Shown here piece after piece: positions 1 through 32,047 of a DNA stretch of 64,000 nucleotides. A model generated the notes under the pieces. The model ran no database searches, had not been told where the DNA came from, and worked only from the letters and a program-made list of their open reading frames with translations. Each line of letters starts with the position of its first letter. The stretch's first letter is position 1. Location of the stretch: the IMG/VR virus record IMGVR_UViG_3300025138_000016, one strand, 5' to 3'. The translations under genes and the position numbers were made by a program. The DNA comes from a virus.

Positions 1-147
1 TTTAGGGTATACCCTTCCGTTTCTATTCTGGAGGTTTGATTGAAGGAATACACCTTCAATAAAGTAATTCGTTTTTTTGCCTTCTCCGGCAGCTTCTTTG
101 ATGTAATTAACATCGTCCATGAAATTGACTTCAGTAATAAGCTTCAT
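1..147 (-). CDS. gp21: Prohead protease (N-terminal fragment; runs off window edge)
   Basis: Own translation from ATG at 147: MKLITEVNFMDDVNYIKEAAGEGKKTNYFIEGVFLQSNLQNRNGRVYPK. This matches the T4-like gp21 signature IEGxFxQ...NRNGRxYP, and the gene lies downstream of the portal and core genes. Confidence 0.9.
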   Translation of the reverse strand, partial: MKLITEVNFMDDVNYIKEAAGEGKKTNYFIEGVFLQSNLQNRNGRVYPK

Positions 148-148
148 A

Positions 149-400
149 CTAGTCTCCGTATCCCACTGATGTAACTAGGCCTGCTGATGCAAATAATTTA
201 TCTTCAGCTTTCTTATGAAAGTAATGTATACCAGCATCTACTGATGTATTACCTATTGCTGTATTAGCACTATCTACTAACGTTACAACTGCTGCAGCTG
301 TATGATAAAACTTAACAAGCTTAGCATTGTCTACTGTTGTAGCAGCTCCTAGAGTTGTCCCTGCTGTTGCTTCGTTACCTTTGATAATGATTATTTTCAT
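149..400 (-). CDS. Small hypothetical protein in head gene cluster (83 aa)
   Basis: Intact ORF tightly packed between the core protein gene and gp21; no recognisable motif. Confidence 0.7.
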   Translation of the reverse strand: MKIIIIKGNEATAGTTLGAATTVDNAKLVKFYHTAAAVVTLVDSANTAIGNTSVDAGIHYFHKKAEDKLFASAGLVTSVGYGD

Positions 401-864
401 TACTCAACACCTAATGCGAATTCAACCATCTTAGCAAATGATTCTTCGTCTTTTAATAATAGTTCAATGAAAGCTTCTCTGTTAGATTCGTCTAGTTGAT
501 CTACAACATAGACAAGATGCTCAGCTAAGTCAGGAGCCATCATTACTTCTTCTTCACTCATTAAACCGAATGGTTGATCTGAATCTATCTCAGCCATATC
601 TAGAAGTTGCTCTATAATGTCTTCTGAAGTAACATACTCTTCGTATGCAGTCTTCTCTTCTTCTTTAGATAGGTCAGCTTTCTTGGAATGATCTTTCTTT
701 GCTTTTCTAGCATTCAATACGTCATCAGTTCCTTTAGCTGGATACTCTCTGTCATCGATGTTATCAGTATGCTTCTTCTTCCATTGCTTTTCACCTTCGG
801 CTTTATCTCGTCCGTGGTGAGGAAGATCCATTGCAGCTTCTAAAATGTCTTTAAGATGTTTCAT
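400..864 (-). CDS. Putative prohead core protein (gp68-position), acidic
   Basis: Likely start at ATG 864 (MKHLKDILE), overlapping the upstream stop. Acidic and helical; position between gp20 and gp21. Confidence 0.55.
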   Translation of the reverse strand: MKHLKDILEAAMDLPHHGRDKAEGEKQWKKKHTDNIDDREYPAKGTDDVLNARKAKKDHSKKADLSKEEEKTAYEEYVTSEDIIEQLLDMAEIDSDQPFGLMSEEEVMMAPDLAEHLVYVVDQLDESNREAFIELLLKDEESFAKMVEFALGVE

Positions 865-1222
865 CCGTTTCCTCTTCTGAAGAGTCTTCATCCTCTTCTG
901 GTTGTTCGTCTTGCTCTTCATCGTTTACTAATGAATCCATTTCTTCGTCTGATTCATCGTCGTTGAGAGCATCCTCAATTTCTTCTTCTGATGGCTCTGC
1001 AGATAGCTGCTCGTCATCAACTGGCTTCTCTTTCGAGATTGGCTCTTGGCCGAACATATCTTTATGTAGGGCGTCTTTTTTACCTGCAATTAAATCTGCA
1101 GCACGTTGCATCATTTCGTTATCGAAAGCCTTTTGCACCGCGACAGGTTTCTCACCCATTGCACTATTAATAAGCGCATCTAAATCAACTTGTGGTGTTC
1201 CACTCAATTTTGGTTCTGCCAT
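851..1222 (-). CDS. Putative prohead core protein (gp67-position), very acidic C-terminus
   Basis: Directly downstream of the portal gene, with a GGAG SD and a D/E-rich tail. Confidence 0.55.
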   Translation of the reverse strand: MAEPKLSGTPQVDLDALINSAMGEKPVAVQKAFDNEMMQRAADLIAGKKDALHKDMFGQEPISKEKPVDDEQLSAEPSEEEIEDALNDDESDEEMDSLVNDEEQDEQPEEDEDSSEEETDETS

Positions 1223-1247
1223 TCTATATCTCCATTATATTTATTAT

Positions 1248-2861
1248 TTATGCATCCTCACCAGCTGGTGGAGGTGTTCCTGCGTCTGGAGCAGGTTCTT
1301 CTGGTTGCTGATTCCAAGGAGCGTCTGGTTGTGCGCCGCCGCCTGGACCAAAGTCATCTTGATCTTGTCGTTCTGCGTCCATCTCTGAACCCATTTCTTC
1401 AATCTCTTTCTCGCTAAGGTGTAGAACATTTCTTCTAACCCAATCTTTAGAATAGTAAGTACCAGTATGATCTTGAATGTCTCCAAGAACCTGTAATCTC
1501 TCTCTAATAATTTCAGAGTTCTTTAATTCTGAGAAGTGATTATCTTCTACAAAATCATACTTAACATGATTCTGAACTGTAGCCCATTCATCTAATGTTA
1601 GTATACCTTTTAGTACTAATTCTTTTTCAAGTATCTTATTAAAGAGAGCTGAGAATCTTAATCTAAGTCTTCTTATAAACTTATTAAACTTCAACTCATC
1701 TCTAGATATTTCGGAAGCTCTGCCTAGAGTAAAACCATTTTCGGGTTCTAGTCTGCTTGATGGTACGTTTAATGCACGATATAGTTTCTTCTTAAAGTAT
1801 TCTATATCTTCCATCTCGCCTAAATTTTGCCCGCCTGGTAGTGTTGTGATCTCAGTACCTCTACCTCCTTCTCTTCTAGGTAGCCAGAAATCTTCCATCA
1901 TCGTCATAAACTTTCTATCGTCTCTTATCTCTCCTGAGGCAGCATCATAGACTAATCTGTTCTTATGCTTAGTCATCATGTCCCTTAAGTACTGCTCAGC
2001 TTTCATCTTAGGTAGGTTACCGACATCAATATAAAATATTCTTCTCTCAGGAGCTCTTGATATTCTATATATTACTGATGCATCTTCCAAAACCTGTAAT
2101 TGATTAAGAGGTTTAATTGCTTTGTGTAGATGTGATAATACCATCTTATTGTACTCATCTGTTAAACCAGACGTACAATGAACGATACTATCTTTCGCGA
2201 TTTTTAGACCTTGTGCTCCGCCAGCTTGTATAGGGTCTGGAGTTGCATAAGACTTGCTGTTAAAGCCTTTATCGTTATAGATAAAGAATTCTTTAACAAC
2301 TTTGATAACCGTAAAGTTACCTTGTTTTTCTTTTTTAGTCTCTCTTACTTTTCTGATCTTTCTAGGATCGACATATCTTAATTCTTGTATGCCTTTTGTT
2401 GGATCTTTGTCGTCAATTATAGCATGATAATATAGACGTCCATCAACATACCATCTTCTGAATGTTTCATATCCAGTAGACGATAAGCCTAGTAATTCAG
2501 TAGTATGACTAAATGCCTCATGTACGAGGTCTTTTACCTTTGGTGACATATCCTTACATGCGTCAAGGTTAATATCAACAACGGGTTGTGTTGGATCTGA
2601 TACTATTGATTCATTAATAATATCATCAATTGCGTGCTCTACTTCAGGTTGTAGAGACATCTTTCTATATCGTGTGACTAACTCAGCCTCATTCTTTGCT
2701 GTTCCTTCGAGGTCAACGTATGTGCCATACATTCCGCCCATAGAATTAATGTTGACGGCACCGTCATCAAATTGGGGTTGTGCGAATGATTTATGTTCTG
2801 ACGAATCGTTTGCTGATACGCCTGTTTTTCGATTAATCTCGAAGCCGAATAATTCTGCCAT
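1248..2861 (-). CDS. gp20: Portal vertex protein
   Basis: Motifs YRISRAPERRIFYIDVGNLPK, EDFWLPRREGGRGTEITTLPGGQNLGE and FRRWYVDGRLYYH. Confidence 0.97.
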   Translation of the reverse strand: MAELFGFEINRKTGVSANDSSEHKSFAQPQFDDGAVNINSMGGMYGTYVDLEGTAKNEAELVTRYRKMSLQPEVEHAIDDIINESIVSDPTQPVVDINLDACKDMSPKVKDLVHEAFSHTTELLGLSSTGYETFRRWYVDGRLYYHAIIDDKDPTKGIQELRYVDPRKIRKVRETKKEKQGNFTVIKVVKEFFIYNDKGFNSKSYATPDPIQAGGAQGLKIAKDSIVHCTSGLTDEYNKMVLSHLHKAIKPLNQLQVLEDASVIYRISRAPERRIFYIDVGNLPKMKAEQYLRDMMTKHKNRLVYDAASGEIRDDRKFMTMMEDFWLPRREGGRGTEITTLPGGQNLGEMEDIEYFKKKLYRALNVPSSRLEPENGFTLGRASEISRDELKFNKFIRRLRLRFSALFNKILEKELVLKGILTLDEWATVQNHVKYDFVEDNHFSELKNSEIIRERLQVLGDIQDHTGTYYSKDWVRRNVLHLSEKEIEEMGSEMDAERQDQDDFGPGGGAQPDAPWNQQPEEPAPDAGTPPPAGEDA

Positions 2862-2878
2862 TAGGTAGTCTCCATTAT

Positions 2879-2913
2879 AAAAATTAGAGAGCTAAGTTTC
2901 TTTAGCCCTCTAA
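2879..2913 (-). terminator. Intrinsic terminator between tail tube and portal genes
   Basis: Minus strand reads TTAGAGGGCTAA-AGAAAC-TTAGCTCTCTAA (stem with one G-U pair) followed by TTTTT. Confidence 0.7.
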
Positions 2914-2933
2914 TGTATTTAGCATCACTGCTA

Positions 2934-3485
2934 CTAAGCGTCTGTGCCAGCGTTACCTGTGATACCGCTAACTGTCCAGTAATCGTATTGGAACGAAACA
3001 TCGAATTGTTGAATTTCATCTATCTGCTCCCAGTTGACGCTGATTTCAGTAACGTCTGTTGGAAAGATTCCTACAAACTTATACTCTCTTATCGCGGCTC
3101 CTGTTTTAGAAAACTGAGTTACTGTTGCATCAGTCTTGTACTCTGATGGACTCGCTGCTCCAAATTCTCTCAAGTTACCTTGGTGACTGTTAATCGAACT
3201 CATCCACTCTTCCATGGAGTTTCTGATTAAAAAGTCTTCGTCATTTATTACTGTAACGTTCCATGGGTTAAAGATTCTGTTTCCAGCAACCTTAAACTTT
3301 CTTCCGAAGTAAGGAACTTCAACAGTACCTAGCGTCGAGGCAGGAAGTGCTGAAGCCTTTATCATAAAAGGAGCTTTTAAGTCACCTGCACCGTTAGCTG
3401 GGTTGTTTATTCTTACTTGGAAAAGAGCAGAACGTGCACCGCCAAGTACTAACTGTGATCTGATTTCATTAATATTAAATGCCAT
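2934..3485 (-). CDS. gp19: Tail tube protein
   Basis: LPASTLGTVEVPYFGRKFKVAGNR..WNVTVINDEDF and F.VSFQYDYW motifs; follows the sheath gene. Confidence 0.95.
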   Translation of the reverse strand: MAFNINEIRSQLVLGGARSALFQVRINNPANGAGDLKAPFMIKASALPASTLGTVEVPYFGRKFKVAGNRIFNPWNVTVINDEDFLIRNSMEEWMSSINSHQGNLREFGAASPSEYKTDATVTQFSKTGAAIREYKFVGIFPTDVTEISVNWEQIDEIQQFDVSFQYDYWTVSGITGNAGTDA

Positions 3486-20615: not shown

Positions 20616-21434
20616 TTAGTTGTCTTCTAATTCATCGATTAAGTCTTCCCATATGTCCTGATGGTTAACTATTGTTGATAATGTAAACCTATTTGTACGA
20701 GCATGCGCAGCATGCCAGGAAGAATCTTCTGGATTATCCGACCATTTTACTATCGGATTATCCATACCTATTTTCTCTCTATGTATTTTTTCTGGTGCTG
20801 TTGATATAAATTGTCCTGCTCTACAGCTCCAACCCTTTGCGTCAGGGTATTCTAAAATCTCACCATTATCATAAGTAAAGAAGTCCCCTTCACCTATTTT
20901 GTTATAATGTAATAATATGTTATAACCTGGTGCATTTCCGTTATGATGCCAAGGTATAAATGTGCCAGGTGTATAAAAAGCACAAAGCGCCATTGCTCCA
21001 CCACCTAGAAAGTCAGCTGATATATCATATACAGCTTGTTTAAGTTTTGTACCTAAGAAGAACTTAGGATTGTTATAGAATGTTTGTCCAGCTAAGAATG
21101 TTTCCGCATTAGGAAATCCGCTAGTAACATGTGAGCCATTTTCTTTGCGCATTAAATTCATCTGATACTGAAGGTATTCCATACCACATGGATCCATCTG
21201 TCCATCTTTAATATCATCTCTTGTATGACTTGGTAGTATATCAAAGTGAGGAGATACTTTATACGCTTCTTTACCTTCTTTCCTTCTCTGCTCAGGGTTA
21301 CGATGATCAAAAGACAACTTATGTTCTCTATCTAAAAACTCTTTATCATCGAATACTTGATCAACAAGTCCAGATATATTATCTAATAGTTTAAGAAATT
21401 CTGGATTCTTAATCTTTACGTCACGCATTTTCAT
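20616..21434 (-). CDS. Cupin / 2OG-Fe(II) oxygenase-like protein (272 aa)
   Basis: FYTPGTFIPWHHN..PGYNILL and distal WHAA..NRFTLS, i.e. a double-stranded beta-helix pattern with HxN...H...R. The second ligand is non-canonical (Asn instead of Asp/Glu). Confidence 0.55.
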   Translation of the reverse strand: MKMRDVKIKNPEFLKLLDNISGLVDQVFDDKEFLDREHKLSFDHRNPEQRRKEGKEAYKVSPHFDILPSHTRDDIKDGQMDPCGMEYLQYQMNLMRKENGSHVTSGFPNAETFLAGQTFYNNPKFFLGTKLKQAVYDISADFLGGGAMALCAFYTPGTFIPWHHNGNAPGYNILLHYNKIGEGDFFTYDNGEILEYPDAKGWSCRAGQFISTAPEKIHREKIGMDNPIVKWSDNPEDSSWHAAHARTNRFTLSTIVNHQDIWEDLIDELEDN

Positions 21435-21440
21435 TATAAA

Positions 21441-22301
21441 TTATCCTTGCTCATGAGGAGCTCGTGCTTGTTCCTTTTCTTCTTGGGTTAACGTCTCCCA
21501 TTCATCTTCAGCATCCTTATAATCTTCTGGTAAAGCTTTATGCATTAATTGACGATCTAATGGATGATGTTTTATTACTGGTGTACAGCCTGCCTCTTCT
21601 TCAGCATTTAGGTACATATTCCAATTCCATTTAGCCTGACCGAACTCAACAGCTGATACTTTTATACCTGGTGCGTCGAATTTCATTATATACCATAATG
21701 TAAATTGGTCCCAGCTTTTATTACCTATCCAATATTCAGGATGCTCGTCCCACCATTTTACTGAACAGTTTATTTCTTTATATCGAGGCCACCAATTGTT
21801 AATAACATTATTAGCTGCTTCAGTATCATTCCATAAAAAGAATCCACCATGCCATATAAAGTTTCTTTCAGGGTCATCATCTCGTATACCAGCATTACCG
21901 TCTTCGGCATATATGGCTGTTGATGCTCCAACTCTTGTTGTTATCTTACAGAAAGCCATATCATGCTCATCATCAAGTAGCTTCCATACATCCTGTATTT
22001 CAGGATCAACAATTTCCATATCAGCATCAAGATAGCATGTCTTTTTAAATGGTGAGAATGGTAGACCCCATAGCTTTGTTCTTGTACTATGTGGCATACC
22101 TTGATCTTCAGTAATAATATCTACTACTTGATCGTACTCTCTAAACTCATCTGCCCATGTATTATGTGTTACAATTAATACTTTACAGTCAGGATAGTAC
22201 TCATCTAATGAGTCTAATAGAATAAGTGCGTTATTTTTATACCAGGGATGTAGCGTCGCTACTATAACAAAACCTTTATCGTATGTCTTATTGACTGACA
22301 T
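21441..22301 (-). CDS. Glycosyltransferase, GT-A fold (GT8-like)
   Basis: K.WGLPFSPFKKTCYLDAD (DxD), HGGFFLW, WDQFTLW, WNW and VIKHH motifs; ATG start at 22301 (GTG at 22310 is an alternative). Confidence 0.75.
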   Translation of the reverse strand: MSVNKTYDKGFVIVATLHPWYKNNALILLDSLDEYYPDCKVLIVTHNTWADEFREYDQVVDIITEDQGMPHSTRTKLWGLPFSPFKKTCYLDADMEIVDPEIQDVWKLLDDEHDMAFCKITTRVGASTAIYAEDGNAGIRDDDPERNFIWHGGFFLWNDTEAANNVINNWWPRYKEINCSVKWWDEHPEYWIGNKSWDQFTLWYIMKFDAPGIKVSAVEFGQAKWNWNMYLNAEEEAGCTPVIKHHPLDRQLMHKALPEDYKDAEDEWETLTQEEKEQARAPHEQG

Positions 22302-22704
22302 CGTAATCACTCACAACTGCTGATGCATATACGTTTAATGCTTCAAACGTTTCTGCTTTACGAAGTCTTCGTTTTAGTTTTTTATTAGTAGAGGCTTTTA
22401 TTTCTGGAAGTTCGTAAAGAGTTAATTTTGCTTGGAACAGTTGTTCTGCAAAAGCTCTCTTTTCGTTTTCCTGTTGTTCTTGCTCTTGAGTGTCGCGTTG
22501 GGTTCTGTACTCATCTATATCAGCTTGAGTTCTTGCATCGATCTCATCTAGAGTAGTTTCGCGTAAAGCAGCATCCCAATTTTCGGTATCTGCTCTGTCG
22601 ATTATCATCTCACGACTTCCGGTGTCAGTTATTTCCCGACACCTTAGTCTTGTCTTTGTTTCTGGATCTTCCCACAAGATTTTTTTAAATCTTTTATCTG
22701 CCAT
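22288..22704 (-). CDS. Hypothetical helical protein (138 aa), possible fibre chaperone
   Basis: Charged helical ORF with GAAGG SD; first gene downstream of the repeat-protein pair. Confidence 0.6.
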   Translation of the reverse strand: MADKRFKKILWEDPETKTRLRCREITDTGSREMIIDRADTENWDAALRETTLDEIDARTQADIDEYRTQRDTQEQEQQENEKRAFAEQLFQAKLTLYELPEIKASTNKKLKRRLRKAETFEALNVYASAVVSDYDVSQ

Positions 22705-22761: not shown

Positions 22762-25700
22762 TTATGCAACTCTCAGCCATAGTTTAACTGTGCTTTCTAC
22801 ACTAGTACTAGCCATAATAGTATCACCTGAGAACTGTCCTGTAAACTGATTACTAAATGTACTTGTATACTGAGGACCTGGAGTCGATCTAGAATAGGTT
22901 CCATCTGAATAACTTGGTCCACCAGTAGCTCTAGCATAGCCTATTGCAAAGTTTGGTCCAACTACTAGTCTAGCATACTGACCATCTGTGTAACCTGGTC
23001 CAGGAGTAGTTCTAGCGTAGCCTACTGCATAGTTAGGTCCTGGTCTACTTCTAGTATATTGACCGTCTGAGTAGCTAGGTCCTGGTGTAGTTCTAGCATA
23101 GTTAGTTGTATACTGTGGTCCTGGTGTTACTCTAGTATAGTTACCATCTGAGTAGCTAGGTCCAGGAGTAGTTCTAGCAAAGTTAACTACGTAGTTAGGT
23201 CCTACAATTAATCTTGTATATTGACCATCTGAGTAGTTAGGTCCAGGTGTTGATCTAGCATAACCTACTGCATAGTTAGGACCTGGTCTGCTTCTTGTAT
23301 ACTGACCATCAGAGAATGTTACACCTGGTGTTGATCTTGTGTACTGTGCAGTAAATTGTCTTAAGAACGATCTACCATAACCAGCAGAGTAAACTCTTAC
23401 GAAGCCTCTAGCATATGCTCCTGTAAATTGTCTGTTGAATGCTCTTGAATAACCAGCTGAGAATTGTCTAGCAAATGCTCTTGAATACTGACCATAATAG
23501 GCTCTAGCAAACGCTCTACCATATCCTGCTGAATATACTCTAGTAAACTGTCTAGCATATTGACCAGCGTATTGCCTAGCAAATGCTCTTCCATATCCTG
23601 CTGAGTAGACTCTAGTAAATTGTCTAGCATATGCACCGTTATAAACTCTTCCGAATGATCTTCCATATCCTGCTGAGTAGACTCTAGTAAATTGTCTAGC
23701 ATATGCTGCTGAATATACTCTTCCGAACGATCTAGTATAACTAGCTGAATAAACTCTAGTAAATTGTCTAGCATATGCACCGTTATAAACTCTTCCGAAT
23801 GATCTATTATAATTAGCTGAGTAAACTCTACCAAACGATCTTCCATAAGCGCCAGCATATACTCTGCCATAGTTAACAGCATAAGCTGGCCCAGGCCTGC
23901 TTCTACCATAGTTTACAGCATAAGCTGGTCCAGGTCTTGATCTAGCATAGTTAACAGTATAGTTAGGTCCTGGTCTACTTCTTGCGTAGTTGCCGGTATA
24001 TACTCTACCATAGTTAACTGTATACTGTGCTGAATAAACTCTACCATAGTTTACTGTATAAGATCCGTAATAGATTCTTCCAAAGGATCTTCCATAAGAT
24101 ACACCATAATTTGGTCCAGGTCTTGATCTACCGTAGTTACCAGCATATAGTCTACCGTAGTTAACTGCATATGAACCTGAATAAGTTCTACCATAGTTAC
24201 CGTAATAAACTCTACCATAGTTAACAGCATAGTTTGGTCCATTATATTGAATGCCAGGTAAAGGTCCCCTAGCATATTGAGGTCCAAAGAAGTTAGAGCC
24301 ATCACCACCATTAATAGGTGAAGGTGATTGCCATGGATAGTTTCTTGAGAAAACTCCACCATAGTTAGTACTTGGAAAAGAGTTATTAAACTGTCTTGTA
24401 TAACTTACACCATAAGCTGGTCCAGGTCTTGCTCTGTTATAAGCCGGCCCGCCTCTTGATCTACCATATGATACGCCGTAGTTTGGTCCGCCTCTTGATC
24501 TAGCATAGCTACCGTAATAAACTCTACCGTAGTTAACAACATAGTTTGAAGTATAATTTGGTCCAGGTCTTGATCTACCGTATGCTACACCATAAGCTGG
24601 TCCAGGTCTTGACCTACCATAACTTACACCATAAGCTGGTCCTGGTCTACTTCTTCCGTAGTTACCTGCATATACTCTTCCGAAAGCTCTTCCGTATGCT
24701 GCTGAATATACTCTACCGTAGTTAGTTGCATATGCACCATAGTATACTCTACCATAGTTAACAGCATAAGCTGGCCCAGGTCTGCTTCTTGCGTAGTTAC
24801 CGTCTGAATAACCTGGTCCTGGTCTTGATCTAGCATAAGCTACATCATAGTTAGGACCTGGTCTACTTCTAGTATAGTTACCATCTGAGTAGTTAGGTCC
24901 AGGTGTTGATCTAGAATAGCCTACTGCATAGTTAGGTCCTGGTCTTGATCTGGCATAGTTACCATCACTATAGTTAGGTCCTGGTCTGCTTCTTGCGTAG
25001 TTAACAGTATAGCTTGGTCCTGGTCTACTTCTAGTATAGTTACCATCTGAGTAGTTAGGTCCAGGTGTTGATCTAGCATAGTTAACAGTATAGTTAGGTC
25101 CCGGTCTGCTTCTTGTATATTGGCCATCTGAGTAGTTAGGTCCAGGTGTTGATCTAGCATAGTTAACAGTATAACTTGGACCTGGTCTAGTTCTTGAATA
25201 CTGACCGTCTGAATAATTTGGTCCTGGTGTCGCTCTTGCATAACCTACTGTATAGTTAGGTCCTACAATTAGTCTAGAATAGTTACCATCTGAGTAATTA
25301 GGTCCAGGTGTTGATCTAGCGTAGTTAACAGTATAGTTAGGACCAGTAGTAGTTCTTGCATATTGACCATTAAATACTCTCTGGAATTGTCTTGCATATT
25401 GACCAGCATATTGTCTAGCAAACGCTCTAGTATATTGCGCTGAGAATACTCTAGTAAACTGTCTAGCATATTGACCGTTAAATTGTCTCTGGAATGATCT
25501 TCCGTATCCTGCTGAGAATGATCTAGCGAACTGTCTAGCATATTCACCAGAAAATGATCTAGCAAATGATCTTCCATACCCTGCTGTAAATGATCTAGCA
25601 AACTGCCTAGCATATTGACCAGCAAATTGTCTAGCAAATGCTCTTGAATAGTCTGCTGTAAATGATCTATTAAATGCTCTGGCGTATTGACCAGTAAACT

Positions 25701-26595
25701 GTCTAGTAAATGATCTTGTATAGTCAGCTGTAAATGCTCTAGCAAATTGTCTAGAATACTGTGCTGAATATACTCTGGTAAACTGTCTTGAGAAGTTACC
25801 AGTAAATTGTTGTGAGTACTGCTGAGATTGAACATCAGATAAACTATTTTCTATAGCATTTGATACCTGTAACCATGTTCCTGTTCCTGGGGCAGCAGTT
25901 TGTAGCTTATAAGTACCTACTCCAGTAGCTACTATTCTATTTCTTAATCTTTGTGTGAGAGTTTTAATCTCAGTATTATTCATCTCATTAACTGATGGTG
26001 TTGATGCATGTGCAGTTGCTTTCAAAGGTCTATATTCAGTTGGTGAAGTACCTGATGCAATCTTTCTCCATAGTTTATATGTAGTTGCTGCTGATTCACC
26101 AGTAGCTACTGTATCAGTAAAGGTGCCTTTATCCTGCCATGTACCACCAGATGGAGGAGATACTCCTAAAAAGTATTGCCCTGTTGCGTAACTAGATGTA
26201 TTTGCTATCTTTGCAATTAGGTGAGACATTACTGATGCATTTAAATCAGTGTCGTCTTGCTCTTCTATACCTTTGGATGCATCCCACTGAAGAGGTCTTA
26301 CAAGACCGCTCTCTGAATGTGAAGCAATATTTTGATAAAGTGTAGTAGTAACAGAGTTAGTAGCTCCAGTAGCTGGATGTGTTCCTACTGTTTCTGTTCT
26401 TCTCGTATCAACAAAAGTACCCACTGATGTACCTGTTGAAAAGCTTATATCACCTGTGCCTGTGCCTGTAGCGAAATCAGCCAGTATGATATCTGCCATG
26501 TAATCCATTTCGGCACTAGACATGCTCTGTAAGCCAGAGAAATTGGTTGTATTCGGTGTACCCGAACTAGTTTTAATTCTTAAAGGATTTGCCAA
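22762..26595 (-). CDS. Giant Tyr/Arg/Gly/Pro repeat protein with mirror-complementary repeat order (1277 aa); putative hairpin fibre
   Basis: TTG start with GGAG SD. A ~260-aa N-terminal base is followed by ~980 aa of A/B repeats centred on NGGDG, then C-terminal VKLWLRVA. Confidence 0.85.
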   Translation of the reverse strand: MANPLRIKTSSGTPNTTNFSGLQSMSSAEMDYMADIILADFATGTGTGDISFSTGTSVGTFVDTRRTETVGTHPATGATNSVTTTLYQNIASHSESGLVRPLQWDASKGIEEQDDTDLNASVMSHLIAKIANTSSYATGQYFLGVSPPSGGTWQDKGTFTDTVATGESAATTYKLWRKIASGTSPTEYRPLKATAHASTPSVNEMNNTEIKTLTQRLRNRIVATGVGTYKLQTAAPGTGTWLQVSNAIENSLSDVQSQQYSQQFTGNFSRQFTRVYSAQYSRQFARAFTADYTRSFTRQFTGQYARAFNRSFTADYSRAFARQFAGQYARQFARSFTAGYGRSFARSFSGEYARQFARSFSAGYGRSFQRQFNGQYARQFTRVFSAQYTRAFARQYAGQYARQFQRVFNGQYARTTTGPNYTVNYARSTPGPNYSDGNYSRLIVGPNYTVGYARATPGPNYSDGQYSRTRPGPSYTVNYARSTPGPNYSDGQYTRSRPGPNYTVNYARSTPGPNYSDGNYTRSRPGPSYTVNYARSRPGPNYSDGNYARSRPGPNYAVGYSRSTPGPNYSDGNYTRSRPGPNYDVAYARSRPGPGYSDGNYARSRPGPAYAVNYGRVYYGAYATNYGRVYSAAYGRAFGRVYAGNYGRSRPGPAYGVSYGRSRPGPAYGVAYGRSRPGPNYTSNYVVNYGRVYYGSYARSRGGPNYGVSYGRSRGGPAYNRARPGPAYGVSYTRQFNNSFPSTNYGGVFSRNYPWQSPSPINGGDGSNFFGPQYARGPLPGIQYNGPNYAVNYGRVYYGNYGRTYSGSYAVNYGRLYAGNYGRSRPGPNYGVSYGRSFGRIYYGSYTVNYGRVYSAQYTVNYGRVYTGNYARSRPGPNYTVNYARSRPGPAYAVNYGRSRPGPAYAVNYGRVYAGAYGRSFGRVYSANYNRSFGRVYNGAYARQFTRVYSASYTRSFGRVYSAAYARQFTRVYSAGYGRSFGRVYNGAYARQFTRVYSAGYGRAFARQYAGQYARQFTRVYSAGYGRAFARAYYGQYSRAFARQFSAGYSRAFNRQFTGAYARGFVRVYSAGYGRSFLRQFTAQYTRSTPGVTFSDGQYTRSRPGPNYAVGYARSTPGPNYSDGQYTRLIVGPNYVVNFARTTPGPSYSDGNYTRVTPGPQYTTNYARTTPGPSYSDGQYTRSRPGPNYAVGYARTTPGPGYTDGQYARLVVGPNFAIGYARATGGPSYSDGTYSRSTPGPQYTSTFSNQFTGQFSGDTIMASTSVESTVKLWLRVA
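22858..25794 (-). repeat. Coding tandem repeats: 36-nt A units (YxRxFxRxYxGx) and 39/42-nt B units (YxRSxPGPxYTVN / YxRSxPGPNYSDGN)
   Basis: Near-identical DNA units are visible, e.g. 72-nt periodicity around 23520-23820 and 81-nt periodicity around 24870-25330. Confidence 0.9.
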
Positions 26596-26655
26596 GGATC
26601 AATTCTCCCGAATGGACAGTATAACTGCAGTGTTATTGAAATTCTATGTGTTTAT

Positions 26656-29091
26656 TTATGCAATTCTTAACCACAAGGTCTTAGTATTTTCAGTATAATT
26701 TGAAGAAACTGTGAGGCCTGAATACTGTTTATTACGAGAACCAGCAAATTGATTGCTATAAGATGAAGCAAACTGTGAGCCAGGTGTTGATCTTGTATAT
26801 TGTCCAGTAAATTGTCCACGAATAAAGTTACCTGTATACTGAGGACCAGGTCTTGATCTAGCAAAGTTTACAGTATACTGTACTGACCTTGCATACGTAA
26901 CACTATAAGCACCAACAAATTGTCTAGCAAATTGACGCTGATAATCCCCTGAGAAAGATCTAGCATAATCAGCTGTATATACTCTTGTGTATTGAGTGAG
27001 GTATGTTGGTCCATTATAGTTAGGACCTACTGTGCTTCTAGTATATTGAGCTCTTGCATATAGACCAGCATACTGAGGTCCAGCAAATTGTCTACCATAA
27101 GCACCATAACTTCTAGAGCCTGCGAATGTTCTAGTATAAAATATTCGCGAATATGCCGGAGCATTTCTTGTTCTTGCATACTGTGCTGTATAGTTTCTTA
27201 AATAACTAACTGAATATGCAGGACCATCATATTGTGGACCAGCTACATCTCGAGTAAAGGTACTTATATACTGAGGTCCTGCTCTTGATCTTGCATATTG
27301 AGGACCATCATATTGTGGTCCTGGAGTTGATCTAGCATAAGCAGGACCATTAAAAGATAGAGAAGGCACAGATCTTGTATACTGTGGACCACCTGTAGCT
27401 CTAGAAAAGCTTCTAGAGAAGAATCTTGTATATTGTCCTCTTACAAAGTTTACTGGAATAGGCCCACGGTTATATGAGCCTCTAAAATATGCTCTTCCAT
27501 CACCACCATTTGCTTCGCTTTCTGGAACGTTATAATAGTAAACTGTTCTATAAAAGACTTGAGAAAAATCGAATCCTGGAGCTGTACCTGAATAAAGACC
27601 TGTGAACTGATTACCTGTTGAGTAATTTTGATCATATTGCCCTATGTAAGTTCTACCATACTGGCCAGCATAAAATCTTTGATAAGCCGCTCTTGTATAG
27701 TTTGCTGAGTATACTCTTGTATATTGTCTTTGATATTGCGCTGAATAATTTCTAGCATATTGAACTGAATAGTTATTAGTATATCGTCTAAGAAATGTCC
27801 TAGTATAATTAACAGTATAGTTTGGTCCGTCTGTTGATCTTGCATACTGACCGTAATAAACTAAAAGATATGCGACAGCATATGTAATGCCTCTTGAATA
27901 TGCGCCTGTGAAAGATACTGCATAGTTATCTCCCCTTGCATACTGTCTTTGAAATTGCGAGGAATATGTACGAGCATATTGACCTGCATATTGTCTAGTA
28001 AATGCTCTTTGAAATTGAGCACTAGCATATTGAGGTCCAGGAGTAGATCTTGCGTATGAGAGGCCTGCAACTACTCTTGTATATTGTGGACCATCATAGT
28101 TAGTACCAGCTACTCCTCTAGCAAAGTTAGATATATAACCTCTTGCAAAGCTACGTCCATAGCTACCAGCATATACTCTTTGGAATTGATCTGCATATTG
28201 TCTAGCAAATTGTCCTCTAGAATATTGATCACTAAATATTCTTTGGAATTGTCTAGCAAAGGTATTAGCATATTGTGCTGTATAGTTACCAGTATATTGA
28301 GTATTTTCAATATTAGGATTTCTGTCTGTAGCAGCTCCTCTTGCAACCCATGTACCTACACCAGGAATAGAAGTTTGAAATTTATATGTGCCGACGCCTG
28401 TTGCTACTATTCTATTTCTTAATCTAGCTACTAATGTCTGTATTTCTGTATCAGACATTTCTTGTAAGTTGGTAGTAGATTGTTTAAGTAGTTTAACTTG
28501 AGTAGGACTACTAGTATGAGATGTTTTTCTCCATAGCTTATAAGTAACTTTTTGATCTTCATCATTTGCGTTGTTAGTAACTTCATCAAAGAATTGATCT
28601 TGAGCTACCCAAGTACCACCAATGCTAGGTGCATTAACACTAACGTAATAAGATCCTGCAGCTGCATATGTTGAATTAGCTTTAGCTATATCATCTAAGC
28701 AAAGTTGCATTATAGTAGTGTTTAATTGAGTAGATGTTTGTTGTGCAACATGACCAGGATTAGATGTACCACCATGTGTAGCAGGTGTAATCATACTAGC
28801 TTCTGATAAAGAAGAAACGTTTTGTTTAAATATATAAGTAGTAGCACCAGCTGATCCTGAATAAGGATGCGATAAGAGTTCACCAGTTGCAAAATTATCT
28901 ACAAATGTACCAACACTAGTACCTGTTGAATTGATATTTAAATCTCCAACATGATCACCAGAGCCTGACTCTGTAGCGTACTTAGTGTTTATTAATTTAA
29001 CGGAATAGTCAAGCTCAGCATTTGTTGTGACTTGGACTCCATTATTATAAACCCCATTTGCATGTGTTCGCAACTTAAGGGGATTGCTCAT
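26656..29091 (-). CDS. Paralogous Tyr/Arg repeat hairpin protein (811 aa)
   Basis: Shares the NPL(K/R) N-terminus, GTSVGTFVD, YKLWRK, RLRNRIVATGVGTYK, the NGGDG turn and the LWLR(I/V)A C-terminus with 22762-26595. Confidence 0.85.
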   Translation of the reverse strand: MSNPLKLRTHANGVYNNGVQVTTNAELDYSVKLINTKYATESGSGDHVGDLNINSTGTSVGTFVDNFATGELLSHPYSGSAGATTYIFKQNVSSLSEASMITPATHGGTSNPGHVAQQTSTQLNTTIMQLCLDDIAKANSTYAAAGSYYVSVNAPSIGGTWVAQDQFFDEVTNNANDEDQKVTYKLWRKTSHTSSPTQVKLLKQSTTNLQEMSDTEIQTLVARLRNRIVATGVGTYKFQTSIPGVGTWVARGAATDRNPNIENTQYTGNYTAQYANTFARQFQRIFSDQYSRGQFARQYADQFQRVYAGSYGRSFARGYISNFARGVAGTNYDGPQYTRVVAGLSYARSTPGPQYASAQFQRAFTRQYAGQYARTYSSQFQRQYARGDNYAVSFTGAYSRGITYAVAYLLVYYGQYARSTDGPNYTVNYTRTFLRRYTNNYSVQYARNYSAQYQRQYTRVYSANYTRAAYQRFYAGQYGRTYIGQYDQNYSTGNQFTGLYSGTAPGFDFSQVFYRTVYYYNVPESEANGGDGRAYFRGSYNRGPIPVNFVRGQYTRFFSRSFSRATGGPQYTRSVPSLSFNGPAYARSTPGPQYDGPQYARSRAGPQYISTFTRDVAGPQYDGPAYSVSYLRNYTAQYARTRNAPAYSRIFYTRTFAGSRSYGAYGRQFAGPQYAGLYARAQYTRSTVGPNYNGPTYLTQYTRVYTADYARSFSGDYQRQFARQFVGAYSVTYARSVQYTVNFARSRPGPQYTGNFIRGQFTGQYTRSTPGSQFASSYSNQFAGSRNKQYSGLTVSSNYTENTKTLWLRIA

Positions 29092-29101
29092 ATTTTATCC
29101 C

Positions 29102-32047
29102 CTAGGCCGGCCAGGCCACATCACCATTAGCGTAATATACTCTGAATGCGTTTCCGCCTTCATCTTTAATATCACTATGTATTGATAAGTCTCCTACTAC
29201 GTTAGCTGCTGCTTGTAAGTTTGTTGCGCTTGTTACTTTTAATGTACCTGTTTCTGTTTCACCAGTAACACTTACGTTAGCACCAGCAGTAATATTATTA
29301 TCTACTTGTGCTGTAGAAGATACATTTATAAAGCCAGTAATAGTTGTATTACCAGTACCTAAAGTTTTACCTACAGATACGTGCTGTGTAGTAGATATAT
29401 TACCACTAAAAGTACCTGTGTTAGCAGTTAATTTAAATCTCTTAGTTGTATCACCAAGTACCGCACCTGATGTATTAGATGCAGGTTTAACACCTGAAGA
29501 CGTTGATATAATGCCAGTAGTATTAATTGTATTAGCATTCAATACCCATCTATTATTTACATCACCTAATGAAACTGTATTGCCATTAGGAATAAATCCT
29601 ACTGTTGAGTTACCAACAGGTGCAAGTACAAATAAATGCTCTGTACCTGAGTTATCACCAATAGTAGTATTACCATCTAATGTTGTCTCTGCTGATACAG
29701 ATAGTGTAGTCATTGTGGCTACATTTAATGATAGCGCGTTATCACTTGCAAGTGATGTTGTACCTTGTACTGTGAAATTACCAGCAACAGTAACATTATT
29801 ACTGAATGCTGTATTTGGTGCAACGTCCATACCAGTATCAGTGATGTATAATTCACCGCTTACTAGATTAGCTGTTGCGCCTGTATGAATTATAGGTGAG
29901 GTTAAAGTACCATGCGCTAATGAGCCTGTTATAGACGTATCGCCGCCAACATTTAATTTCTGACCTATTTGTACTGACTTAGCTATACCAACACCACCTG
30001 AAGTAGTTATTGATCCAGTTGTAGTACTAGTACTATTAGCAGTGTTATCTACATCTATTTTACCATCAACACCTAAGTGACTTGATACGTTAGCTGTTCC
30101 AGTAATCTCTACATCGCCAGTAATTGTAGCACCAGATGCTGAGACTGTTAAACCGTCTGCTACTGTTAATGAATCACCTAATACGACGTTACCTGATACA
30201 TTAGCAAGACCAGTTATATCTGCTCCACCATTAAGATCAGATAATCCTGAAACCTCTAGTCCGCTTGATAGAGTAGCTTTACCTGTAACACCAAGAGTAC
30301 TACCAACAGTAGCTGATGTTCCTATACCAGCTCCGCCGACTGTAGTTAAACTAGCGGCTGCGATAGCACCGTCTGCAGCTATAGCCCCTGAATCAGATAT
30401 TACAGCATTTACTGTACTATTACCAATAGTTATTTTTGAATGTGTTATTGCGACATTACCAGCTGTAATATTATCTTGAGCTGTTATTGCGCCTTGTACG
30501 TTTAATGTACTATTTAAATCTGTTGCACCATTAGCCTGTAAAGTACCTGTTACATTTGCACTTGCTGCTTTTACATTACCAGCAAATACTGCAGCATTAG
30601 CTGTAGTTGTTCCGTCTATTGAAACTGTATTACTTAATGTAGTTGATCCAAGCACTGATAGAGTACCATCAGTATCAACGGCTGTTTTTGTTATGGCTGT
30701 ATTAACAGTTGAATTACCAACTGTTATTTTTGAAGTTGAGAGGTTAACATTAGCGCCAACATTCATTTGCGTTGTTGCGTTTGCTATACCTGTTGTTATT
30801 AGACCTGATTTAGCTCTTAATAATCCACCAACGTTAGCTGCACCTGATAATAAAGTAGTTGTACCTACTGATAGATTATCAGTTATAGTAACTGTATCAC
30901 CAGCTGTTACATTACCTGTTAGTGTTGTTAAACCTGATGCATTTATATCAGCTGCTTTTAATCCCCATCTAGCATCATTTAATCCTAATGTCTGTGTATT
31001 AGCTTCTGGATTAATATTTGAAGATACTTCAGCTATAAAGTTAACTGAATCTGAGTTAGCATTACCTAAATCAACATCTGCATTAAGAGTTGTTTTGCCT
31101 GCAATAGTAAGAGTACTACTACCACCTATTGCTCCTGTCACATCGGCTTTACCGCCTATTGACGTATTCCCTGTAACTGCTAGAGTATTTGATACACTCA
31201 CAGTATTACTATTAAGGTTCCATCTAGCGTCTGTTAGACCAAGGGACAATGCGTTAGAAACGGGGTTTAAGCTTGAATCAGACTCTGAATTAAACGTTAC
31301 TGTATCACTATTAGCTGAACCAAGTACTACGTTTGCATTAAACTGTGACTCATCTGAATCAACAGTTACTAAGTTACCAGCCAATGTTACAGAGGTTGAT
31401 GTACCATCTCCATTTATATCAATAGCAGATAAAGTTGAATTAGACTTAAGCGTTATATCGTTAGCAGTAAGAGTAGTATTATCATAATCAGCTGTTAATG
31501 TTGTACCATCCATATCAACTGTTGTAGAGTTAATATCTAATGTTGTACCAGTAACATGAACTGCTGTTGAATTTATTGAAGTATTAGTTGATGATGAATT
31601 AATATGTACATTAGAACTAACTTGTAGCAAAGTACCATTAGCAAATACGTTTGCTGTTTCTAGATCAACGAATGATCCTTTAATGGTAACAGAATTAACA
31701 GTAGCATTAGAGCTAACATTAACAGTACCGTTTGATAGATTACTGTTTGATGTAACGTAGAGAGTGTTTGATACTTGTACATTACCACCTCTTACATCAT
31801 TAAATACAGCAATTGTATTAGATTGTAATATACCGCCTGTGCTATTAACCCAAGCTTCAGTATCTTGATTGTAAACGTTTGATGTTATTACAACGTTACC
31901 AGATGTAGAACCACCAACAGTATTTTGCTGAGCAGTAACAACTGTCTCAGATAAATCAAATAGTATCTGATTGGTTTTGTCTACCCAAGCACCAAAGGTG
32001 TCTGTTTGCGTTGCAATATTAGCGGATTTATATTTTCTTTCAGCCAT
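29102..32047 (-). CDS. Long tail-fibre-like protein (981 aa)
   Basis: N-terminal TDTFGAWVDKTN baseplate-anchor motif, beta-repeat shaft, recurring P..N..LG...RW.L modules and C-terminal RVYYANGDVAWPA. Confidence 0.7.
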   Translation of the reverse strand: MAERKYKSANIATQTDTFGAWVDKTNQILFDLSETVVTAQQNTVGGSTSGNVVITSNVYNQDTEAWVNSTGGILQSNTIAVFNDVRGGNVQVSNTLYVTSNSNLSNGTVNVSSNATVNSVTIKGSFVDLETANVFANGTLLQVSSNVHINSSSTNTSINSTAVHVTGTTLDINSTTVDMDGTTLTADYDNTTLTANDITLKSNSTLSAIDINGDGTSTSVTLAGNLVTVDSDESQFNANVVLGSANSDTVTFNSESDSSLNPVSNALSLGLTDARWNLNSNTVSVSNTLAVTGNTSIGGKADVTGAIGGSSTLTIAGKTTLNADVDLGNANSDSVNFIAEVSSNINPEANTQTLGLNDARWGLKAADINASGLTTLTGNVTAGDTVTITDNLSVGTTTLLSGAANVGGLLRAKSGLITTGIANATTQMNVGANVNLSTSKITVGNSTVNTAITKTAVDTDGTLSVLGSTTLSNTVSIDGTTTANAAVFAGNVKAASANVTGTLQANGATDLNSTLNVQGAITAQDNITAGNVAITHSKITIGNSTVNAVISDSGAIAADGAIAAASLTTVGGAGIGTSATVGSTLGVTGKATLSSGLEVSGLSDLNGGADITGLANVSGNVVLGDSLTVADGLTVSASGATITGDVEITGTANVSSHLGVDGKIDVDNTANSTSTTTGSITTSGGVGIAKSVQIGQKLNVGGDTSITGSLAHGTLTSPIIHTGATANLVSGELYITDTGMDVAPNTAFSNNVTVAGNFTVQGTTSLASDNALSLNVATMTTLSVSAETTLDGNTTIGDNSGTEHLFVLAPVGNSTVGFIPNGNTVSLGDVNNRWVLNANTINTTGIISTSSGVKPASNTSGAVLGDTTKRFKLTANTGTFSGNISTTQHVSVGKTLGTGNTTITGFINVSSTAQVDNNITAGANVSVTGETETGTLKVTSATNLQAAANVVGDLSIHSDIKDEGGNAFRVYYANGDVAWPA

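What the first reader, a model, noticed from the sequence alone, without database searches (positions are those of the whole stretch)
25795..26595. The hairpin is inserted into one loop of a three-repeat base domain whose last strand is the protein's C-terminus
Seen in sequence: the N-terminal base has internal repeats (GTSVGTFVDT...TTLYQN; GGTWQDKGTFTDT..TTYKLWRK; GTGTWLQV...). The third copy lacks its closing YKLWRK-like strand until the last residues, STVKLWLRVA (TKTLWLRIA in the paralog), ~1000 aa later. Inference: the chain returns to its origin, which independently supports the out-and-back topology and suggests the fibre grew from a short beta-hairpin loop.
Basis: partly seen in the sequence, partly recalled or inferred. 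Interest (0 to 1): 0.7.

Follow-up and report, generated by a model that had tools for sequence, protein, structure and literature searches.

The report
Fibre hairpin grows from a beta-prism foot
A 1277-residue tail-region protein of an uncultured marine T4-like phage starts with a small three-bladed "foot", sends about 1000 repetitive residues out of one hairpin of the third blade, and uses its very last residues to close that blade, so the chain returns to where it began, which is unusual for a phage fibre.

Summary

- **Three units:** residues 1-254 of the protein (window 22762-26595, minus strand) are three homologous ~85-residue units, each strand-strand-helix-strand-strand-strand (profile comparisons P 1e-13 to 1e-23).
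- **Closing strand:** unit 3 lacks its last strand. The final residues (..TVKLWLRVA) match the closing strand of unit 2. Adding them raises the profile score by 20; control segments add 0-3.
- **Family:** 394 relatives, viral where a taxon is recorded. In 144 complete sequences the distance across the unit-3 hairpin runs from 25 to 3094 residues, and nearly all complete members end in L-[WYF]-x-[RK]-x-x.
- **Models:** AlphaFold2 folds a 287-residue relative at pLDDT 96 with unit 3 ending in a long hairpin. In the window's 811-residue paralogue the base and the last 27 residues score 86-98, but the repeats score below 50.
- **Fold:** the base is a single-chain beta-prism. It is closest to MABP domains (Z 5.8-7.5, then a drop to 2.3), one of which (MPEG1) carries an elongated hairpin.
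- **Midpoint:** the conserved tip motif stays at 0.51-0.52 of the insert while the insert grows from 446 to 1032 residues.

Whether the hairpin grew or shrank, the oligomeric state and the virion attachment site remain unproven. A look-alike search found this on no other DNA in the scan.

The parts
22762..26595 (-). Whole gene, 1277 aa (P0001): beta-prism base, about 1000-aa repetitive insert, C-terminal closing strand
   Evidence: ORF list and translation. TTG start with GGGAGA upstream. N-terminus matches homologues that begin MANPLRIK.
26320..26595 (-). Base unit 1 (residues 1-92), closing strand ..TTLYQNIA
   Evidence: Family alignment. hhalign U1-U2 P=1.4e-13.
26053..26307 (-). Base unit 2 (residues 97-181), complete, closing strand TTYKLWRKIA
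   Evidence: hhalign U2-U3 P about 1e-23. Its hairpin loop is tightly constrained in the family at 9-27 residues.
25834..26037 (-). Base unit 3, N-terminal part (residues 187-254): YRPLK strand, helix, GTYKL strand, GTGTW strand. The outgoing stem of the hairpin starts here.
   Evidence: In the paralogue's model the equivalent outgoing strand 248-271 has pLDDT 86-98.
22810..25833 (-). Insert (residues 255-1262): Tyr/Arg/Phe/Gly/Pro-rich units. The outgoing arm has about 12 A-type units then B-type units; the returning arm, read backwards, has about 12 B-type then A-type.
   Evidence: Sequence. A crude unit parse found 29 of 36 positions complementary counting from the base outward.
24256..24312 (-). 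Tip motif NGGDG...RGPLP (residues 762-780) near the midpoint of the insert
   Evidence: The centre of the motif lies at 0.513-0.522 of the W-to-W interval in proteins with inserts of 446, 491 and 557-560 residues. For this protein (insert 1032) my regex missed the motif; 0.513 is my own arithmetic from the positions.
22765..22809 (-). C-terminal segment (residues 1263-1277, ..STSVESTVKLWLRVA): return stem and closing strand of unit 3
   Evidence: Score gain of +20 against unit 2 versus 0-3 for controls. Motif conserved in the family: L 100%, W 87%, R 99% in a motif-selected set. Equivalent residues in the paralogue's model have pLDDT 96-98.
28279..29091 (-). Paralogue P0002 (gene 26656-29091): base, residues 1-271
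   Evidence: AF2 pLDDT 82-98. MABP beta-prism matches with Z 4.6-6.1.
26659..26739 (-). Paralogue P0002: return stem and closing strand, residues 785-811 (..TKTLWLRIA)
   Evidence: AF2 strand E785-809 with pLDDT 96-98. Superpositions on beta-prisms run to residue 811.
20616..22704 (-). Three downstream genes (138, 289, 272 aa) that travel with this gene family
   Evidence: BLASTP shows homologues in the same positions after the 3347-aa homologue of phage C48C1 and after the 287-aa homologue in L003. Their function is untested.

Best explanation
The N-terminal 254 residues and the last ~10-15 residues of one chain together form a single-chain, pseudo-threefold beta-prism 'foot' made of three homologous strand-strand-helix-strand-strand-strand units. 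In unit 3 the hairpin between the fourth and fifth strands is drawn out. A conserved two-stranded stem of about 20 residues per arm leaves the prism and carries a repetitive insert of very variable length (about 1000 residues here, 540 in the neighbouring paralogue). The chain then comes back down the stem and ends as the closing strand LWLRVA. Shown by sequence statistics and models: the three-unit homology, the identity of the C-terminal strand, its packing on the base, the beta-prism fold, and the existence of short-hairpin relatives. Inferred: the insert is an in-register self-paired ribbon with a turn at NGGDG; the conserved foot is the virion-proximal end, docked in the baseplate or fibre region; and the variable hairpin is the part that reaches outward. 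A 500-residue arm would span roughly 150 nm if fully extended.
For: - Unit homology and the specific score gain from the C-terminal strand.
- AF2 of the 287-aa homologue: pLDDT 96.2, the same secondary-structure order in all three units, and unit 3 ending in hairpin E241-257 / E260-285.
- AF2 of the window's paralogue: base and last 27 residues at pLDDT 86-98.
- Both models give the same top four structural neighbours, all MABP-type beta-prisms: 2qp2 Z 7.5/6.1, 8b6v 7.3/5.9, 3tow 6.9/5.8 with 109-116 of 152 residues aligned, 6sb1 5.8/4.6. The next unrelated hit is at Z 2.3-2.7, and the aligned ranges reach the C-terminal residue.
- MPEG1's MABP domain is described as carrying 'an extraordinary elongated beta-hairpin' (PMC6753088).
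- In 144 complete homologues length variation is concentrated in the unit-3 hairpin (25-3094), while the unit-2 hairpin stays at 9-27.
- Five homologues carry a second insert of the same Tyr/Phe/Gly-rich type in the equivalent hairpin of unit 1.
- The tip motif stays at 0.51-0.52 of the insert over a 2.3-fold range of length (this protein's value is my arithmetic).
- The order of A and B units is complementary on the two arms.
- The gene lies between baseplate wedge genes and other structural genes.
Against: - No coordinates could be inspected, so packing is read from pLDDT, DSSP strings and superposition ranges only.
- The 1277-aa protein itself could not be folded because of the length limit; the evidence comes from its paralogue and a short homologue.
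- The insert of the paralogue is modelled at pLDDT below 50, so the ribbon has no structural support from AF2.
- Z scores of 6-7.5 fall in the range the tool calls 'middling'.
- Foldseek found nothing in PDB or BFVD.
- The 3347-aa C48C1 homologue has globular domains on the return half and is not symmetric.
- The oligomeric state, presence in the virion and attachment site are all untested.
Confidence: 0.82

Rival explanations
1. Strand-swapped antiparallel dimer or oligomer. The C-terminal strand completes the prism of a neighbouring chain, not its own, so two chains run antiparallel with a foot at each end and the fibre is twice as long.
For: An antiparallel homodimer obeys the same pairing rule (i + j constant) as an intramolecular hairpin. 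It would therefore give the same A-faces-B order and the same central tip position. AF2 was run on monomers only, and the long insert has no confident model.
Against: Short relatives with only 25-50 residues between the anchors are modelled with very high confidence as intramolecular hairpins, and the family shows a continuum of lengths. The tip is rich in Gly, Pro, Asn and Asp, as expected of a turn.
Confidence: 0.08
2. The base is closed by the C-terminal strand as described, but the insert is not an extended two-stranded ribbon. It would be a disordered or otherwise folded low-complexity domain insertion (for example a coiled or solenoid stack) whose ends merely meet at the base.
For: AF2 gives pLDDT below 50 across residues 274-781 of the paralogue. 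Domain insertions in general have adjacent ends. The C48C1 homologue carries globular domains within its insert.
Against: The tip motif holds the midpoint over inserts of 446 to 1032 residues (the 1032 value is my arithmetic). Block order is complementary on the two arms. The alternating aromatic/Arg pattern is typical of strands. The confidently modelled stem already extends about 24 residues per arm beyond the prism.
Confidence: 0.1
3. The C-terminal L-W-x-R-x-A motif is an independent signal, such as a docking peptide for a partner or chaperone or an assembly tag, and only resembles the unit-2 strand by chance.
For: It sits at the extreme C-terminus in every complete member, as short linear motifs often do. 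It gives no score gain against unit 1.
Against: The gain of +20 against unit 2 is specific, with controls at 0-3. Unit 3 otherwise lacks its fifth strand. Two AF2 models place it in the base at pLDDT 96-98, and beta-prism superpositions include it.
Confidence: 0.03

Closest known systems
MABP (MVB12-associated beta-prism) domains: human MVB12B (3tow), the C-terminal domain of Photorhabdus Plu-MACPF (2qp2), Mpf2Ba1 (8b6v), and the perforin-2/MPEG1 P2 domain (6sb1, 6u23)
   Same: Both are single-chain beta-prisms with internal pseudo-threefold symmetry. These domains are the only structural neighbours that stand above background for both models. MPEG1's MABP domain also has one hairpin drawn out into an 'extraordinary elongated beta-hairpin' used to contact membrane (PMC6753088).
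   Different: There is no detectable sequence similarity (Pfam, NCBIfam and a PDB profile search were all empty). Each unit here carries an extra N-terminal strand pair and a helix. The hairpin is 25 to more than 3000 residues across rather than the short hairpin of MPEG1 (its length is from my memory, not checked here), and it ends the chain. The context is a phage tail module, not a pore-forming or ESCRT protein. Whether the elongated hairpin leaves the equivalent blade could not be checked without coordinates.
Needle domain of the T4 long-tail-fibre tip protein gp37
   Same: It is a phage fibre segment in which each chain runs to the tip and folds back, so outgoing and returning strands lie side by side.
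   Different: gp37 is an obligate trimer whose six strands are held by His-coordinated iron (iron sites: PMC6957217). Here there is no His in the insert at all. The two ends of the chain are tied together by a monomeric prism, and the fold-back covers nearly the whole protein.
Trimeric beta-prism and triple-beta-helix domains of phage fibres and spikes
   Same: A threefold prism is used as a base or connector in a tail appendage.
   Different: In those proteins three chains each contribute one face. Here one chain supplies all three faces through internal triplication, so a fibre would emerge from one face only.
Vibrio cholerae Bap1 beta-prism with a 57-residue adhesive insertion (PMC12965690; seen in a search listing only)
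   Same: A peptide associated with a beta-prism protein provides surface adhesion.
   Different: It belongs to a bacterial biofilm matrix protein, is a short insert, and is not terminal. I did not read the paper beyond its abstract.

Membership tests
MABP / single-chain beta-prism fold | Three-sheet prism with pseudo-threefold symmetry built from one chain | tested here: met
   Three homologous units by hhalign. The same secondary-structure order appears in all three units of a pLDDT-96 model. MABP domains are the top four structural hits for two independent models, at Z 5.8-7.5 and 4.6-6.1, with a gap down to 2.3-2.7.
MABP / single-chain beta-prism fold | Sequence membership (recognisable by family profiles) | tested here: not met
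   No Pfam, NCBIfam or PDB-profile hit, and Foldseek found nothing. This is therefore fold resemblance only, not family membership.
MABP / single-chain beta-prism fold | Basic or hydrophobic membrane-binding loop or hairpin, as in MVB12B and MPEG1 | not testable with these tools
   Whether the blades are equivalent could not be checked without coordinates. Lipid binding needs an experiment.
gp37-type fold-back needle | His-x-His iron-binding sites along a trimeric six-stranded needle | tested here: not met
   There is no histidine in residues 255-1262 of P0001 (sequence).
Annotated phage tail-fibre families (Pfam, PHROGs) | Profile match to a known fibre family | tested here: not met
   Pfam gave none. 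PHROGs gave only phrog_20647 (unknown function, E=4e-4), and that match lies on the repeats. The nearest Atlas clusters are unannotated viral proteins.
Virion structural protein of a T4-like tail module | Gene located among baseplate and fibre genes on the same strand | tested here: met
   gp6-like, wedge-like and fibre-like genes lie directly upstream. The short homologue's locus contains T4 gp13. The C48C1 homologue follows tail-fibre and chaperone genes. Presence in the virion is not tested.

The most novel reading that the evidence does not exclude
This would be a new class of phage appendage. A monomeric fibre is built as one giant self-paired beta-hairpin whose two ends are locked together by a single-chain beta-prism foot. 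Its length is freely tunable from about 25 to more than 1000 residues, because any change must be matched on both arms. The same type of hairpin can sprout from a second, equivalent blade of the prism.
Probability: 0.5. Interest if true: 0.85.

Novelty: new variant of a known kind. Interest (0 to 1): 0.72.

Why it matters
Phage fibres are almost always parallel homotrimers anchored by the N-terminus with the C-terminus at the far end. Here both termini sit in one small domain and the working length is an insertion in a hairpin.

- **A defined anchor:** this gives a register point for the proposed out-and-back ribbon. Residue W241 faces the C-terminal W1273, which makes the pairing of the arms directly testable.
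- **A minimal member for structure work:** family members of 287-313 residues fold with very high predicted confidence.
- **A natural length series:** relatives with different hairpin lengths allow study of how a two-stranded beta ribbon is stabilised and extended.
- **A name for an unannotated family:** at least 394 cluster representatives, viral where a taxon is recorded (Atlas clusters), carry this recognisable architecture.
- **An unexpected structural link:** the fold connects the MABP prisms of eukaryotic ESCRT and perforin-like proteins to phage tail proteins.

Tried and rejected
- **Profile searches:** Pfam, NCBIfam and PHROGs on the base and the whole proteins gave nothing usable. A PDB sequence-profile search gave only E>2 noise.
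- **Foldseek:** searches against PDB and BFVD gave no hit with E<0.1. T4 gp11 appeared at the top of the Foldseek list (E 0.25, TM 0.09) and at Z 2.2 in VIA. I rejected it as insignificant.
P0001 (1277 aa) exceeds the 1200-aa limit. I folded the paralogue and a natural short homologue instead.
- **Unit 1 versus the C-terminus:** appending the C-terminus gives no score gain against unit 1, so the strand equivalence rests on unit 2.
- **Direction of change:** a FastTree of base domains shows long and short inserts intermixed, for example 25, 47, 57 and 1032 residues as neighbours. It has no reliable root, so 'growth from a short loop' cannot be distinguished from repeated shrinkage.
- **Neighbouring fibre genes:** BLASTP between the window's upstream 981-aa fibre-like protein and the 933/931-aa proteins upstream of the short homologue found no similarity.
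- **Literature:** searches for MABP plus bacteriophage found no paper, and 'C48C1' found only an unrelated paper.
- **Other DNA in this scan:** a look-alike search returned nothing.

Full report
**Setting.** The finding covers residues 1-267 of a 1277-residue ORF on the minus strand (22762-26595). The ORF starts at TTG behind a GGGAGA site. An 811-residue paralogue lies directly upstream (26656-29091), and a 981-residue fibre-like protein lies above that. Further upstream are gp6-like and other baseplate-wedge genes. The best cultured relatives of the gp6-like protein are only 36% identical: Caulobacter phage Cr30 and the Sinorhizobium phiM12 group. An identical copy of the paralogue occurs on ~155-kb contigs from marine (Tara, JGI) data. 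So this is a divergent, uncultured marine T4-like myovirus. Neither paralogue matches any Pfam or NCBIfam family, and PHROGs gives only a weak match to an unknown-function family on the repeats.

**The repeat in the base.** An alignment of 144 complete family members shows that these strings belong to three whole units:
- Unit 1 is residues 1-92, unit 2 is 97-181, and unit 3 is 187-254.
- Each unit has the same order of elements: an xPL[K/R/Q] strand, a second strand ending in ..EM, a helix, a G.Y.L strand, a P..GTW strand running into F.DT, and a closing T.Y.LW.K.A strand.
- Family profiles of the units match one another by hhalign with P=1.4e-13 (U1-U2), about 1e-23 (U2-U3) and about 1e-11 to 1e-13 (U1-U3).

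Unit 3 stops after the GTW/DT strand. When the true last 14 residues of each protein are appended to it, the score against unit 2 rises from 107.6 to 127.5 and the alignment extends from 62 to 77 columns, with TVKLWLRVA laid on TYKLWRKIA. The preceding 14 residues, the reversed C-terminus and three column shuffles add only 0-3. Against unit 1 there is no gain, because its closing strand has diverged.

**The family.**
- A full HMMER scan of 1.84 billion representatives with the 267-residue base found 394 proteins at E<=1e-3 and 303 at E<=1e-10. The nearest Atlas clusters are unannotated and 94-100% viral.
- Among the 176 sequences retrieved, 142 end in L-[WYF]-x-[RKQE]-x-x, where L is invariant, W is 87% and R is 99%. 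Most of the rest are visibly truncated fragments. My 'complete' set was selected using this motif, so the fixed four-residue tail is partly circular.
- Total lengths run from 273 to 1364 residues, and to 3347 in phage C48C1, the only hit in the cultured-phage collection.
- Measured between the invariant Trp of GTW and the C-terminal aromatic, the unit-3 hairpin spans 25-3094 residues (median 220). The equivalent hairpin loop of unit 2 is 9-27 residues. That of unit 1 has a median of 23.
- Five homologues (P0040, P0074, P0103, P0111, P0129) carry a second insert of 42-112 residues in the unit-1 hairpin. It has the same Tyr/Phe/Gly-rich type as their unit-3 insert. In P0074 both inserts contain the string FQRFFGGFSGGFF.

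So the equivalent hairpins of the three units behave as equivalent growth points.

**Models.**
- The 287-residue member P0091, folded with a 91-sequence alignment, gave pLDDT 96.2 and pTM 0.90. Its secondary-structure string repeats strand-strand-helix-strand-strand-strand three times. The third copy ends in a long hairpin, E241-257 / E260-285, two residues from the C-terminus.
- The window's paralogue P0002, folded with 137 sequences, gave pLDDT 82-98 for residues 1-270 and 96-98 for 785-811. It has long strands 248-271 and 785-809. Residues 274-781 score below 50.
- I could not inspect coordinates. However, a C-terminal peptide does not reach pLDDT 96-98 unless it is packed, and the structural superpositions below extend to the last residue of both models.

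**The fold.**
- Foldseek found nothing in PDB or BFVD.
- The exhaustive VIA-align search gave, for P0091: the C-terminal domain of Plu-MACPF (2qp2, Z 7.5), Mpf2Ba1 (8b6v, 7.3), the MABP domain of MVB12B (3tow, 6.9, with 109 of 152 residues aligned) and the perforin-2 P2 domain (6sb1, 5.8), then MPEG1 (6u23, Z 3.8), the same MABP family. The first unrelated hit is at Z 2.3.
- The independent P0002 model gave the same four hits at Z 6.1, 5.9, 5.8 and 4.6, then a fall to 2.7, with model ranges 47..811.
- These Z values are in the range the tool calls 'middling'. But four hits of one fold, twice, well separated from background, identify the base as a single-chain MABP-type beta-prism.

The architecture of prism plus drawn-out hairpin therefore has a precedent, although no sequence relationship is detectable.

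**What the closure does and does not say about the fibre.** Closure of the prism proves only that the ends of the insert are adjacent. Three further observations tie it to an in-register out-and-back ribbon:
- **A conserved stem.** The stem (outgoing ..DTR......Y.G, returning G.T[VI]Q..TE.[VI]ST..LW) is modelled confidently for about 24 residues per arm beyond the prism.
- **A fixed midpoint.** The conserved tip motif (NGGDG..RGP[LIV]) has its centre at 0.513-0.522 of the interval between the two anchor tryptophans, in proteins whose interval is 446, 491 and 557-560 residues. For P0001 (interval 1032) my own arithmetic from positions 762-779 gives 0.513. Both arms therefore lengthen together.
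- **Complementary unit order.** In a crude parse of P0001, the outgoing arm reads 12 A-type units ([YF]xRx[YF]...) and then B-type units ([YF]xRxxxGPx). The returning arm read backwards reads 11-12 B-type and then A-type. In all, 29 of 36 positions are complementary, and the mismatches are explained by units my regular expression missed.

An antiparallel strand-swapped dimer would satisfy the same rules. I rate it low because the short members are confidently intramolecular hairpins and the tip is rich in turn-forming residues. The asymmetric, domain-bearing insert of C48C1 shows that not every member is a plain hairpin.

**Function (inferred).** The base is far more conserved than the insert: 34-45% identity between proteins whose inserts cannot be aligned. 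The gene sits in the baseplate and fibre block. By the usual logic of phage fibres the foot is therefore the virion-proximal anchor and the hairpin the outward, fast-evolving part. The reverse orientation, with a lectin-like prism outward, is not excluded. Three downstream genes (138, 289 and 272 aa) have homologues in the same positions after the 3347-aa C48C1 gene and after the 287-aa gene in L003. They therefore go with the foot or stem rather than with the long repeats.

**Evolution.** On a base-domain tree, long and short inserts are interleaved. Length is therefore highly labile, and the direction of change cannot be read without a root.

**Verdict.** The base is a new, sequence-orphan variant of a known fold. 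Its use as the clasp of a giant hairpin appears undescribed: literature searches found nothing. Earlier notes of this scan on the same genome had proposed the same reading. A look-alike search found none on other DNA.

Noticed in passing
window 20616-22704 (-); L003 7901-9736; L002 10250-11426: A three-gene cassette (138, 289 and 272 aa in the window) follows the prism-hairpin gene in three distant phages, whether the hairpin is about 50, 1000 or 3000 residues. The middle protein has weak leads to GT-A-type glycosyltransferases: Atlas clusters with PF03407 in 51% of members at score 0.97, and sub-threshold Pfam hits (E 0.02-0.5) in the homologues. The return stem of the hairpin is rich in Ser and Thr.
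   Followed up: partly
homologues P0040, P0074, P0103, P0111, P0129: These carry a second repetitive Tyr/Phe/Gly-rich insert in the equivalent hairpin of unit 1. In P0074 both inserts contain the same FQRFFGGFSGGFF string, so these relatives would carry two hairpins on one prism.
   Followed up: partly
L002 112-10155 (phage C48C1, OQ984149): This is a 3347-aa family member annotated only as hypothetical. Its first half is repeats. Its second half alternates repeats with several globular domains. It also contains a perfect tandem duplication of about 70 residues (RKTRHRSYLYYSTDTS...SGQY), which could be recent or an assembly artefact.
   Followed up: no
L003 12495-16738: Four consecutive radical-SAM genes lie a few kb downstream of the short-hairpin homologue, just before a T4 gp13-like neck gene.
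   Followed up: no
window 26596-26655: The 60-nt gap between the two paralogues contains CATAAATAA, which resembles a T4 late promoter, right after the upstream stop codon, and a GGGAGA ribosome-binding site before the TTG start of the downstream gene.
   Followed up: no
window 29102-32047 (-): The 981-aa protein upstream of the paralogues is Ser/Thr/Asn/Gly-rich and fibre-like (weak hit to phrog_25747, tail fibre). It has no detectable counterpart next to the short homologue.
   Followed up: partly
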